Of a DNA stretch of 64,000 nucleotides, positions 11,901 through 60,543 are shown piece by piece. The position numbers and the translations under genes are program-made. The notes beneath the pieces were generated by a model. It searched no databases. It saw only the letters and a list, made by a program, of their open reading frames with translations, and was not told where the DNA came from. Numbering within the stretch: the first letter of the stretch is position 1; each line of letters begins with the position of its first letter. Origin of the DNA: Octopus vulgaris (taxonomy: Eukaryota); assembly GCA_951406725.2 (NCBI GenBank), contig OX597822.1:82956001-83020000 (forward strand). The letters are read 5' to 3'.

Positions 11901-11945
11901 TAAATACGTTTCGGCTGATATACCATCCAGCCTTCATCGGGTGTC
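11901..11945 (-). ncRNA. Decayed copy of the same hammerhead (CCGAUGA core, stem I 3' arm lost)
   Basis: Reverse complement: GACAC-CCGATGA-A-GGCTG(gatggtatat)CAGCC-GAAA-CGTA. Confidence 0.7.
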
Positions 11946-12187
11946 TTGGGAAAATTTCAACAACAAACAAGATGAGAACGAACATCCGTCAAATGAAAAT
12001 AATGTACACAATTCCTCATCTCTTAAATATAGAACTGTATTATCTAATCGGTACGGAGCCGACATTAGATTTCAATGGAGACATATAAACTCCATCAAAA
12101 ATTAGCTCGTCTTTCAAACATCTAACTTTCTTAAAAAAGAGAAAGAAAAAAAAAAAACAAACAAAAAAAGGTTCGAAATTTCCCCAA

Positions 12188-12233
12188 GACACCTGATGAA
12201 GGCTGGAGGTCATATCAGCCGAAACGTTGTGTT
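12188..12233 (+). ncRNA. Minimal type I hammerhead ribozyme, intact core
   Basis: Stem I GACAC/GTGTT; CTGATGA at 12193-12199 plus an extra A; stem II GGCTG/CAGCC; GAAA at 12221-12224; palindromic AACGTT stem III; GUU site. Confidence 0.85.
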
Positions 12234-22904: not shown

Positions 22905-22950
22905 TCTTACAGCTGTTTCTGGGATATTAGGGATATCCCTTCATCAGAGA
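22905..22950 (-). ncRNA. Minimal type I hammerhead, intact core
   Basis: TCT-CTGATGA-A-GGGATAT(cccta)ATATCCC-A-GAAA-CAGCTG-TA-AGA; palindromic ACAGCTGT stem III; GUA site. Confidence 0.8.
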
Positions 22951-28510: not shown

Positions 28511-28708
28511 TCCCGGATTTACTGTATCAAGGATAGCGTTTTTGTACAGTCTATTCTATTACATGCAAGCAGAAAAGCATTTCAAGTGCTATGCTAGTGG
28601 CCGGAACCCTCCCCCATCTAACTCATTGTGTTTTGTTCTTCAGTCTTAGCACTCATAAGGCTGGTTATCCAGTTTCCTCAGCATTTATGTGACAAGGATT
28701 ACAACATT

Positions 28709-28875
28709 GCTGTAATTTAGCCCCTGGAAACATCGTCTCCAGCTGACTATACGACATGATCTATGTCCTTATATTTTCGAACAAGGGAATCTGGCACCCT
28801 TGTTCGAAAATATAAGGACACAGATAGTGTCATATAATCAGCTGGAGATGATGTCTCCAGGGGCTAAGTTACAGC
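28709..28875. mobile_element. 167-bp hairpin MITE
   Basis: Arms gctgtaatttagcccctgg...tcgaacaaggg and cccttgttcgaa...ccaggggctaagttacagc. AACATT is directly repeated at 28703-28708 and 28876-28881. Confidence 0.75.
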
Positions 28876-29029
28876 AACATTAGTCCTAAACCAGGACTGA
28901 CATGCTATGTTGGCAAATAATCTTTACTCCAAAGTACTGTTGCTTAATATCTCTCGTTGTGAGATTTACAAATAGTAGTTTTCTAAAGGATAACAACATT
29001 GCCCCTGAATGGGATGCCGATCCTTTACA

Positions 29030-34859: not shown

Positions 34860-35258
34860 GCAACATAATGCTGTTATATACTTTGGAGTTCTTGAAACTC
34901 TACCAAGCGATATCTGGATTTGCATATCATACACAAGGAATTATCTTGAATGTTAATTCTATTAGAAGTTATTGGTATCTGATTGCTTGATATTGTTAAC
35001 CAGTTCCACTTAACCACTGAGTGCTTTCTTAATATATGCATAGGTTTACTAATTCATTTTATCTATTATATATATAATAGATAAATTTTATCGGATTCAG
35101 TTGTGCATCGTTAACCAGTTAGAGGAGATGTCCTCTTGGAGTTAAAAAATCGCAGTAGAGTCCGCTGAAACGGACAGCCATTTTAAAGTGGTATACGAAT
35201 ATTATTTGTCACTACAACTACTGCGTTGATCTTAGATTTCAGAAGTAACATCTTTGCG

Positions 35259-37660: not shown

Positions 37661-38957
37661 CCTTTTCTATTTTTTAATTATTATAAATCTTCCACTGAGG
37701 GGGGAAGCCAATATCCAACAACGATACAAAGCTCCATCTTTGGGATGTAGTTAACACAGACGAATTCACATTTGGAGCTTGAGAAAACTCTTCCACTCAC
37801 AGATTAGACTTGTACTGTACGAATTAGCTGGTCAATTCCTCTTCCTGAAAATCCCAGTTTATCCAGATTCTCCTTTAAGAATTTACTAACAAAACCTAGT
37901 GCTCCAATTATTATTGGTATGTATATGAATTCATTGTCTGGATATAGAAGCTGGAGATTTTGAAGCAGTTTTCCATAGATATCTTCTTTTTCTTTGAAAT
38001 TCAAAGAGATATATCTGCAGGGCAGCTGACCTCTATGATGATATATACCTTTGCCCCTCTGTCCCAAACAACAATATCCGGTCTGTTAAGCTTACATTTG
38101 ACAGAAGTTTTGATGGGAGTATTCCACCGGTATTCCTTGAGTTGGTGCTTATGAATATATTCCATAACAAAGAGATTTTCTAAGTTTATTTCAGGATTGG
38201 TATTTAGGCAGTGTGTTACAGATCTCAGGGCCCCAATATTTACATGTATAAACCTGAACTTGTAATCTGGATAGAGTAACAGCAGATTTTTCAAAAGTTC
38301 ATCGTAGTTCTCATTTTCGCTGATCTTCAGCTTTATGTTAACATCCGCTAGACATCTGATTTCCATAACTGTACACAGCTGCTCTTCTCTATCCCAAATC
38401 ATTATATCAGGTCTGTTGTGTTTATATTTTATTAAGGTTTTCACTAGGACATCCCATTAGTACTCCTTTTTATTATAAGTGGCTAAGGCTTTTACCATGC
38501 TGTGAGTTCTCGTTTCTGTGCTCTCGGGGTTATCCTTCCAATGGATGTCATTATAGAGTGTCCTAGCTATATCATGTCGCATCGATAGATAATGCCGTGA
38601 TGATATTTTCGGACGACTGCTTATGATGTGGGTGATATCGTCAGTGTCAACTCCACAAAGTCTGCATCGGGTGTCACATTTTACTGCTTTTTTTTGTATT
38701 TCTGTCCCTTTTGTGCATCAGATATTTGGTTTGCAAACATATACCCTTCAAAGTGGGAGGTAGTAATCTGGTTGTTGGTCCATAATAGACTGCTTTAATG
38801 ATCAATGTCACAATTATCTCTGAGCTTTCTACTAACATATCCATGCATGGTCTTCTGCTGATATACGCTCGACCTTTCATCTGATAATATATTACAGTTG
38901 AGTCGTGCGACTTCTTTGGGCATGTATTCTAGGTTATCAGACAAGGAATGCAGTACG
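37661..38957 (-). pseudogene. Two tandem R4/Dong-like fragments (CCHC-like knuckle + two restriction-like endonuclease segments + 3' UTR)
   Basis: RCRLCGVDTDDITHIIS...RHD; KHNRPDIMIWDRE...; then a second NRPDIVVWDRG...EVSCPAD...IPIIIGALG. The 3' end abuts (TATG)n at 37596-37660. Confidence 0.85.
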
Positions 38958-38967
38958 CATGTATGTA

Positions 38968-39815
38968 CAAGGGGGTAACCCCCAAAACTGGAATTTTGCA
39001 ATATTATTTTATTCACTCAGTTTTACATGTTTATATTTTTATCGCCGTCAAAGTATTCTCCATTTTGGAGCAATGCATCGGTCCAGACGAGTTTTCCACT
39101 GTTCCAAGCAGTCCTGGAACTCTTGCGAAGCGATGCCTTTTAACGCTTCTGTCGCTTTTTTTCACCTCTTCCATATCAGCAAATTGTTTTCCTTTAAGGA
39201 CTTTTTCATTCGGGTAACAAAAAAAGTCGTAGGGAGCAAGACTTGGTATATAGAGTGAGGGGGTGAGGTAAGCGGGGTCATGCCATTTTTGGTCAAAAAC
39301 TGTCTCACATTCAAGGCAGTGTGCGCAGGCGCATTATCGCGATGAAACCACCATTCTCCACTTTGCTACTGGTCGGGGTGTTTCTGTTTCGCAAACGCTT
39401 CAGAACTGCCAAGTGAAATGTCTGGTTAACAGTCTGACCAGGAGGAACAAATATTGTGTGGATAATTCTCATCGCATCGATGAAACAAATCAGCATCATC
39501 TTGACGTTGGACTTTACTTGACTTCGGGGCCGTGGTGACATTGAATGCTTCCACTGACTTGATTGCTGCTTCGTTTCCGTGTCATAGGCGTAGTACCAGC
39601 TTTCGTTACCAGTGATAACCTTCGAAAAAAGTTCACAACATACATTCAGTTGTGACTGTTTTTAATCTTCCATGAGCAAGAGAGGCACTAAATTTACTGC
39701 AATTCGTTCAATTCGCAATTCCTCGCTTAAAATTCATTGAGAGGAGCTCCAGGACACACCAGTCATATTAACAAGTTCGTCAATTGTTCGGCGACGGTCC
39801 TCTAAGATTAGTTTC
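38968..39815 (-). pseudogene. Mariner transposon, 3' two-thirds with right TIR
   Basis: TA|CAAGGGGGTAACCCCCAAAA terminus; ITGNESW, VPPGQTVN, PSLAPYDFF, WKTRLDRCI, GEYFDGD. Confidence 0.9.
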
Positions 39816-39823
39816 AGGGTATA

Positions 39824-40190
39824 TGGACTGCCACATTAGCTTGGCGATAACTACTAATATCCAGTGCCGCTGCCGTAGTCTCCTTTAGAGAGACTTAGAA
39901 ATATTAATATTTCTACTTTTGAAAACCAGTGGATGTATTCCACTGAATTAAGGTAAATAATCCTTCGAACAGACGGTTAGTGCTGGGTTCGGCTGCTCTG
40001 CATTGATAAGGGGCAAATACCCTGAAACTAGTCTATAGTTGCCTGACCAGCAAGGGGAACAGGCTGACCTCCCCTGTCCGAAGGTTATAATGGACACAGG
40101 TTTGTGTGTCACATAGCTAGCTAGAGGTGATGGCAGCATTCGTCCTATATTTCTGGACTGCCACATTAGCTTGGCGATAACTATTAATAT
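39824..40190 (+). mobile_element. Retrozyme-like / Penelope-like 330-nt unit with 37-nt terminal redundancy
   Basis: tggactgccacattagcttggcgataactaytaatat occurs at 39824-39860 and 40154-40190. The unit has an internal hammerhead motif and many hairpins. Confidence 0.75.
39998..40038 (+). ncRNA. Type I hammerhead motif with U3-A8 core
   Basis: CTGCA-TTGATAA-GGGG(caaata)CCCT-GAAA-CTAG-TC-TATAG; palindromic ACTAGT stem III; GUC site. Confidence 0.65.
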
Positions 40191-40213
40191 ATGTATGTCT
40201 CTCTCTCTCTCTT

Positions 40214-40288
<75 letters not shown>

Positions 40289-40295
<7 letters not shown>

Positions 40296-40503
40296 ATAAG
40301 AAAATGGAGAAGCACATTAGTTGGTTCATCAGCTTTAGGATATTAAAATGTTAACTTATTTATTTATCAAAACGACAACCATAATAACATACATACATGA
40401 ATAATATACTGTATGTATGTATGTTATTATGGTTGGCGTTTTGATAAATAAATAAGTCAACATTCTAATATCCTAAAGCTATTCTCCATTTTCTTATTTG
40501 TAA
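40289..40503. repeat. Foldback inverted repeat (~95-bp arms)
   Basis: ataaataagaaaatggaga...agctttaggatatt...catacatac mirrored by gtatgtatg...aatatcctaaagct...tctccattttcttattt. Confidence 0.85.
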
Positions 40504-60300: not shown

Positions 60301-60543
60301 GTAAATACGGACACAAACTGTGTGTCGATAGCTAGCTGGAAAAGATGTTTTCCTGGGGCCAAAACAACAGTAACATCGTCCTTTAAAGGACTGCCACGTT
60401 ATGTTGGCATATAAGCATTCGGTACTATAAGTATTCGATACTATATATACATGCATATATATACATAAGTAAATATATACATACATATATATACATATAT
60501 ATATATACACATACATACACACATACAAACACACACACACACT

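What the first reader, a model, noticed from the sequence alone, without database searches (positions are those of the whole stretch)
39806..40190. Candidate retrozyme: 330-nt terminally redundant, highly structured unit with a U3-A8 hammerhead
Seen: a 37-nt direct repeat exactly 330 nt apart and no credible ORF. The hammerhead at 39998-40038 has UUGAUAA in place of CUGAUGA. Stem I is extended by GGC/GCC and TGCTG/CAGCA. Other pairings are AGTCTC/GAGACT, a 20-bp palindrome at 39896-39915, CAGTGGA/TCCACTG, AGGGGA/TCCCCT, GACACA/TGTGTC, CCTTCGAACAG/CTGTCCGAAGG and GCTGCC/GGCAGC. An inverted piece of the ribozyme (39806-39822) forms the junction with the truncated mariner through microhomology. 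Established: positions 3 and 8 base-pair in the active hammerhead, so U3-A8 is compensatory. Animal retrozymes are small non-coding type I HHR units that form circular RNAs. Inference: this is a cDNA of slightly more than one turn of a 330-nt circular RNA. Caveats: stem I has a C-A mismatch, the two core changes could be independent decay, and a Penelope pseudo-LTR partial tandem could look similar.
Basis: partly seen in the sequence, partly recalled or inferred. Interest (0 to 1): 0.9.

Follow-up and report, generated by a model that had tools for sequence, protein, structure and literature searches.

The report
Penelope-copied hammerhead retrozyme, U3-A8 variant
This is a damaged copy of a non-coding, roughly 360-base jumping element present in thousands of copies in this animal genome; it carries a predicted self-cutting RNA motif, and its insertion scars show two fixed copying start points, likely left by a Penelope-type retrotransposon enzyme reading round a circular RNA.

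Summary
The stretch is one decayed copy of a dispersed non-coding family (3,582 exact hits for one 23-nt motif, control 0). The family unit is 360-362 nt; 330 results from two deletions private to this copy. U3-A8 is a family trait (114 of 120 hammerheads), supported by covariation with C3-G8 sister families; the C-A mismatch is private decay, so this copy is probably dead. The ends are not circularly permuted: 3' ends fall at two fixed sites 57 nt apart, mostly in AT-rich/(TA)n DNA, with random 5' ends. Head-to-head insertions pair one site with the other in 56 of 61 cases and carry 9-15 bp target duplications: the Penelope 'tail' signature. Arrays reach 5.5 near-identical turns and copying does not stall at the cleavage site (1 of 46 stops, 1.7 expected), as expected for a circular template. 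No copy is attached to an ORF. A co-resident Neptune/Nematis-type Penelope-like element has the same U3-A8 core and two-end pattern. Verdict: a new variant of a non-LTR retrozyme, mobilised in trans by a Penelope-like element; circular RNA and cleavage are inferred, not shown.

The parts
39824..40190 (+). Main arm: 1.1 turns of the retrozyme unit (consensus c1 round to c37), 5'-truncated, with two private deletions (10 nt after 39980, 21 nt after 40131)
39806..39822 (-). Stub of the head-to-head inverted arm (c204-c220); joined to the mariner through about 8 nt that match both parents; probably cut short by a later deletion
   Evidence: deletion is inference
39991..40043 (+). Type I hammerhead: distal stem 39991-93/40041-43, stem I 39997-40002/40034-39 (three private changes, one C-A mismatch), core U3..A8 40003-09, stem II 40010-23 with CAAAUA loop, palindromic stem III 40027-32, predicted cleavage after 40033
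40160..40190 (+). Site A: hairpin (40160-40175) followed by the fixed 3' end at 40190, the inferred reverse-transcription start; hairpin conserved across sister families
39877..39917 (+). Two hairpins preceding site B (c92-94, about 39915-39917), the second fixed 3' end used by other copies; c38-c94 is the 57-nt 'tail'
40191..40290 (.). AT-rich / (TC)n(TA)n microsatellite target flank
   Evidence: family preference
38965..39813 (-). Decayed, 5'-truncated mariner-type DDE transposon abutting the element (not part of it); its missing portion was not found to the right
   Evidence: the name mariner rests on the recalled HxDNAPxH motif

Best explanation
The window holds a decayed copy of a non-coding, roughly 360-nt retrozyme family with a U3-A8 type I hammerhead, likely copied into the genome by a Penelope-like (Neptune/Nematis-type) reverse transcriptase-endonuclease from a circular RNA. 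Inferred cycle: tandem arrays are transcribed; two hammerheads would pair through their palindromic stem III and cut out monomers; monomers would be ligated into circles, in which a lone hammerhead cannot close stem III and stays quiet. The Penelope protein would make a staggered double-strand cut in AT-rich/(TA)n DNA and prime both strands, one at site A (c37) and the other at site B (c94), each just 3' of a hairpin; the cDNAs run round the unit for a random length and are joined head-to-head or to the flank. Shown by sequence: family, unit length, covarying hammerhead, two fixed 3' ends, A+B pairing, target duplications, multi-turn homogeneous arrays, no ORF. Inferred: cleavage, circle, identity of the helper. 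The window copy has one hammerhead with a damaged stem I and is probably inactive.
For: Copy number and core: 257 hits, 98 of 100 listed U3-A8; 114 of 120; 3,582; 1,053; 99 of 100 listed U3-A8. Covariation: 15 of 17 hammerhead pairs change on both sides, 3-8 pair UA 11 / CG 6, stem III centre always palindromic. Ends: 161 of 193 arms end at A or B; A+B in 33 of 37 pairs, replicated in 23 of 24, pooled 56 of 61, p 3e-12. Target duplications of 9-15 bp in 13 of 13 pairs with non-simple flanks, null mean 4.8. (TA)4 next to 73 of 139 A/B ends vs 4.6% background. Same template lineage for both arms and successive turns (10% and 12% mismatch at polymorphic sites vs 48% and 45% null; 1.6 differences within vs 12.7 between loci). 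No stall at the cleavage site (1 of 46, 1.7 expected). Co-resident RT+GIY-YIG element with U3-A8 core, palindromic stem III, two ends 40 nt apart, (TA)n targets and A+B inverted pairs. Matches published PLE behaviour (PMC11167929, PMC3846280, PMC8557442) and the retrozyme model (PMC7229834).
Against: No circular RNA, cleavage or expression shown. No autonomous element sharing sequence with the unit outside the ribozyme core was found among 50 GIY-YIG loci, so the helper is assigned at clade level only and the site-A hairpin is not evident in it. Uncleaved linear multimers would also give no stall at the cleavage site; in the one PLE tested in vitro unprocessed RNA was the dominant substrate (PMC11167929). 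Several multi-turn arrays have only 0-1 private variant, which does not discriminate. 5 of 61 pairs are A+A or B+B and 26 further pairs have at least one end elsewhere. Rfam finds no hammerhead.
Confidence: 0.8

Rival explanations
1. Non-autonomous Penelope parasite copied from uncleaved linear multimer transcripts; the hammerhead is slow or cuts late and no circle serves as template.
For: U3-A8 and a 1-bp stem III may be slow (inference); PAc uses unprocessed RNA in vitro (PMC11167929); no stall at the cleavage site fits this too; 8 of 9 tested Xenopus retrozyme dimers did not cleave in vitro (bioRxiv 2026.07.22.740005).
Against: Arrays would shorten each generation without a one-unit bottleneck plus amplification; L222 has 13 variants shared by all 5 turns, 9 of them absent from the other 14 loci compared; strong hammerhead covariation implies selection on cleavage.
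Confidence: 0.12
2. The copies are 5'-truncated pseudo-LTR remnants of an autonomous Penelope-like element not yet found.
For: Same tail, inversion and target signature as PLEs; U3-A8 is known from Schistosoma PLE pLTRs (PMC4209133).
Against: After site B the sequence returns into the unit for up to 5.5 turns rather than entering an ORF; no shared flank at a common boundary among 121 loci; 5' ends are spread over the whole unit; the hammerhead has the canonical 6-bp stem I / 4-bp stem II / loop-loop layout typical of retrozymes, not of PLE minimal hammerheads (PMC4209133, PMC7229834).
Confidence: 0.05
3. Monomeric insertions that were later amplified locally by unequal crossover into satellite-like arrays, with homogenisation by gene conversion.
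For: Proposed for Xenopus retrozymes; would also give homogeneous arrays.
Against: Arrays end precisely at A or B, occur in both arms of inverted insertions, are dispersed, and arm lengths fall off smoothly across unit boundaries (70 arms: median 184 nt, 17 over 360, 7 over 720).
Confidence: 0.03

Closest known systems
Metazoan non-LTR retrozymes (Acropora, Mytilus, axolotl/newt; Cervera and de la Pena 2020, PMC7229834; Li et al. 2026 bioRxiv)
   Same: Small (150-450 nt) non-coding, structured, GC<50% tandem units with a type I hammerhead of canonical helix sizes; large target duplications; co-existence with PLEs; stem III like axolotl HHR_Amex1 (one pair plus palindromic tetraloop, works as a dimer).
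   Different: U3-A8 core (not mentioned in the sections read); mostly dispersed 0.1-5.5-turn insertions with two fixed 3' ends and head-to-head inversions, features not described for retrozymes in the parts read; circles not demonstrated here.
EN+ Penelope-like elements (Neptune/Nematis, Poseidon PAc; PMC11167929, PMC3846280, PMC8557442)
   Same: Two internal RT start sites defining a tail; tail on one end of inverted structures; 5' truncation; AT-rich/(TA)n targets; about 8-10 bp target duplications reported for Adineta copies.
   Different: No ORF; tail 57 nt rather than 30-40; canonical rather than minimal hammerhead; no detectable sequence homology to the co-resident PLE outside the core.
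U3-A8 hammerhead variants (Schistosoma Cercyon PLE minimal HHRs, PMC4209133; Perreault 2011, PMC3088659)
   Same: Same compensatory core pair, reported active in vitro.
   Different: Here in a canonical-architecture retrozyme hammerhead, arising at least twice among sister families and also in the host's young PLE.

Membership tests
Non-LTR retrozyme | Small non-coding unit of about 150-450 nt | tested here: met
   360-362 nt; longest ATG ORFs 13-85 aa and not shared between subfamilies in 71 units
Non-LTR retrozyme | Type I hammerhead with canonical helices in each unit | tested here: met
   core is the U3-A8 variant; window copy itself damaged in stem I; Rfam negative
Non-LTR retrozyme | Tandem copies with two or more consecutive complete hammerheads | tested here: met
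   family arrays of 2-5 hammerheads; not met by the window copy, which has one
Non-LTR retrozyme | Highly self-paired monomer | tested here: met
   z -4.1; circular fold z -3.2 to -9.6 in 4 copies, 25 shuffles each, antisense similar
Non-LTR retrozyme | Large target-site duplications, no true LTR | tested here: met
   9-15 bp in 13 of 13 scorable inverted insertions; PBS/PPT not searched
Non-LTR retrozyme | Self-cleavage in vitro | not testable with these tools
   needs transcription assay
Non-LTR retrozyme | Accumulation as circular RNA | tested here: inconclusive
   no run on record as RNA; only contigs; indirect genomic support
Autonomous Penelope-like element | RT plus GIY-YIG ORF between pLTRs | tested here: not met
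   no ORF, no shared flank at a common boundary in 121 loci; unit re-enters itself
PLE-mobilised insertion | Two fixed 3' ends (tail), random 5' truncation, head-to-head inversion with tail on one side | tested here: met
PLE-mobilised insertion | Sequence relationship to the pLTR of a specific autonomous partner | tested here: inconclusive
   only core and end architecture shared with L167 family; BLAST and nhmmer negative on 50 GIY-YIG loci apart from independent retrozyme insertions; genome holds 6,136 candidates, 150 scored

The most novel reading that the evidence does not exclude
One dimeric Penelope RT-endonuclease grips a single circular retrozyme RNA at two hairpins and primes the two cut target strands asymmetrically, one at each site, which would explain the PLE tail, head-to-head inversions and target duplications in one step; and in this host the U3-A8 core was selected repeatedly (two retrozyme lineages plus the autonomous element), perhaps to slow cleavage or to avoid a host protein that binds CUGAUGA.
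Probability: 0.35. Interest if true: 0.8.

Novelty: new variant of a known kind. Interest (0 to 1): 0.62.

Why it matters
How animal retrozymes are mobilised is still a hypothesis (PLEs are the proposed helper), and how PLEs make tails and head-to-head inversions is unresolved. This family gives a dense genomic record that ties the two: PLE-type twin priming at two fixed sites on a 360-nt non-coding unit, near-obligate A+B pairing, and multi-turn copies. With a young subfamily (1,053 core hits) and an intact co-resident PLE ORF, it offers a minimal template for a direct in vitro test. Searches that demand CUGANGA miss thousands of these ribozymes (3,772 U3-A8 pattern hits vs 298 control).

Tried and rejected
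Rfam scans: no hammerhead family hit in the window stretch (E<=10) or four intact loci (E<=0.5). Independent decay of C3 and G8: rejected. 330-nt circle: rejected. Circular permutation of ends: rejected. Idea that the inverted stub marks priming at a self-cleaved RNA end: not supported; only 1 of 272 arms ends in c205-230 (at c228; arms under about 20 nt are invisible to BLAST) and the junction bases also match the mariner. Parent PLE by sequence: not found; Pfam PF26215 not in the library. Expression: no RNA holder listed; four guessed-RNA runs, contigs only, hold many variants and some contigs bridge the cleavage site, but run type is a guess, tandem and circular joints cannot be told apart, and the depth dip reflects divergence of the young subfamily from the reference: not used as evidence. 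No exact core match in viral or metagenome contigs. Earlier scan findings: none. RNAalifold on 38 decayed copies gave a weak consensus with 4 two-sided pairs. Lunse et al. 2017 on PLE hammerhead dimers was not held and may already describe similar variants. Supplement of PMC8557442 was listed but not read; supplements of PMC7229834, PMC4209133 and the bioRxiv preprint were not seen and could list cephalopod or U3-A8 retrozymes.

Full report
Observation. The 37-nt repeat 330 nt apart, the UUGAUAA core, the palindrome, the listed helices and the inverted 17-mer are all present. The monomer folds better than shuffles (z -4.14; antisense -3.47). Rfam does not see the hammerhead. The window lies in a 2.8-Gb, 227-contig, microsatellite-rich animal genome; an octopus is my inference, confirmed by no tool.

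A family, not a one-off. The stretch has 3,102 first-look candidates in its genome, 40 scored. An exact core pattern open at positions 3 and 8 gives 257 hits, control 0; 98 of the 100 listed are U3-A8, none C3. A hairpin motif near the 3' end gives 3,582 hits, control 0; a younger subfamily with core UUGAAAA gives 1,053, 99 of 100 listed U3-A8. Full units are 360-362 nt. The window copy is 95.7% identical to its subfamily majority and has lost 10 and 21 nt; neither junction occurs in other fetched loci. No ORF is shared between subfamilies.

The ribozyme. Among 120 instances, 114 are U3-A8 (most loci were picked by a pattern that fixes the other core positions, so only positions 3 and 8 are unbiased). 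Family stem I is six perfect pairs; the window copy has three private changes on its 3' strand, including the C-A mismatch, and only one hammerhead, so it probably cannot release a monomer. Stem III is always a palindrome: ACAUGU, ACUAGU or ACGCGU, the layout that in axolotl and newt retrozymes works as a dimer (PMC7229834, results sections read). Sister families, about 60-66% identical over the unit, keep C3-G8 and the same loop II. On 18 hand-picked rows, 15 of 17 pairs change on both sides, 94% of cells pair, against 75% in shuffles and 24-53% in slid controls; the 3-8 pair is UA in 11 and CG in 6 (rows are related, so this is not a probability). A tree of 30 rows with positions 3 and 8 masked needs two changes of core type, and one U3-A8 clade is rejected (p-AU 8e-5; unrooted, and I had noticed the second lineage's affinity before building it). 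U3-A8 itself is known: natural and active in vitro (PMC3088659, passages) and about 1,300 copies in Schistosoma PLEs (PMC4209133, parts 1-2).

Ends reveal the mechanism. In 121 loci, 193 arms: 90 end at site A (about c37), 71 at site B (about c94), 32 elsewhere; 5' ends are scattered. Of 56 head-to-head pairs, 37 have both ends at A or B and 33 of these are A+B. In 48 further loci chosen by the hairpin motif, not the ribozyme, 23 of 24 are A+B. Pooled 56 of 61 (p 3e-12); 26 more pairs have an end elsewhere. 43 of the 56 lie in simple repeats; the other 13 all show a 9-15 bp duplication, against a null mean of 4.8. (TA)4 lies within 20 nt of 73 of 139 A/B ends, background 4.6%. A hairpin about 15 nt before site A is conserved across sister families. 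This is the PLE signature: an optional tail on one of two inverted pLTRs (PMC3846280 and PMC8557442, passages), explained in vitro as two internal RT start sites with both target strands cut and extended by a predicted dimer (PMC11167929, parts 1-2); that paper found no difference in start site between strands. The geometry here implies a staggered cut whose two 3' ends are both primed (inference).

Template. The two arms of a locus, and successive turns, share subfamily alleles (10% and 12% mismatch vs 48% and 45% null). In the young subfamily, 28 units from 15 loci differ by 1.6 columns within and 12.7 between loci; L222 has 13 variants in all five turns, 9 seen in no other locus there, while L223 and L224 have one each. 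Arms reach 1,991 nt. Only 1 of 46 passages stops at the cleavage site, 1.7 expected, so cleaved linear monomers were not the usual template. A circle explains all of this; uncleaved homogeneous multimers explain most of it. RNA data were uninformative.

Helper. No copy continues into an ORF. The genome holds a young family with a 781-aa RT plus GIY-YIG ORF and a CxxC linker, i.e. Neptune/Nematis type by the description in PMC8557442 (no tree built). Its hammerhead is also U3-A8 with a CAUG palindrome, it has two ends 40 nt apart, inserts in (TA)n and forms A+B inverted pairs in 2 of 2 cases seen. Outside the core no homology to the unit was found in 50 GIY-YIG loci, so the partner is a clade-level inference.

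The window locus. Main arm ends at site A in a microsatellite; its inverted partner is a 17-nt stub joined to the interior of a decayed mariner through bases matching both. The mariner's missing part is not to the right. A later deletion is the simplest reading; that the stub ends at the cleavage site looks coincidental (1 of 272 arms ends in c205-230).

Comparison and novelty. It works like, and meets the testable criteria of, a non-LTR retrozyme; it is not an autonomous PLE. A PLE origin or helper for retrozymes is already proposed (PMC7229834 parts 2-4; bioRxiv 2026.07.22.740005 parts 1-3, vertebrates and four invertebrates). Six literature searches returned no paper describing a cephalopod retrozyme, a U3-A8 retrozyme, or A+B end pairing in retrozymes; an octopus repeat annotation has no occurrence of 'ribozyme' in its main text (PMC13282606, passages). 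Unread supplements and papers outside the library could hold such a description. Verdict: new variant of a known kind, with an unusually clear mechanistic footprint; interest 0.62.

Noticed in passing
window 28694-28986: Relic of a sister retrozyme family as a head-to-head pair, one arm ending near site A and the other running to the site B region.
   Followed up: partly
window 35087-35250 and 60305-60440: Two more 5'-truncated relics of the same superfamily without the hammerhead; four loci in 64 kb suggest a very large superfamily.
   Followed up: partly
window 12193-12225 (+), with an inverted partner near 11910-11950: Canonical-core minimal hammerhead (CUGAUGA, long stem II) in a head-to-head repeat; same motif recurs in L002 and L186; likely another Penelope pLTR family.
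   Followed up: no
window 22915-22947 (-): Canonical-core hammerhead-like motif inside a long inverted repeat ending in (TA)n; likely a PLE-type head-to-head insertion.
   Followed up: no
window 40331-40480: 68-bp near-perfect inverted repeat just right of the element; miRNA-family Rfam hits there are below gathering and probably spurious.
   Followed up: no
L167 406-1485 and 1745-4090: Young Neptune/Nematis-type PLE with an extra 359-aa upstream ORF of no clear Pfam family and many intact 781-aa copies; U3-A8 hammerhead with very weak stem I.
   Followed up: partly
G000:C1 hits (e.g. L207-L212): A further U3-A8 core family with an A/U-rich stem II and ACUAGU stem III; not characterised.
   Followed up: no
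L121 1381-2277: 2.6-turn array of a 343-nt variant: an 18-nt deletion and several substitutions repeated in each turn; its compensated stem I is shared with L203/L204.
   Followed up: yes
window 38001-38456 (-): 151-aa frame resembling the restriction-like endonuclease end of a non-LTR retrotransposon (recalled motif RPDI).
   Followed up: no
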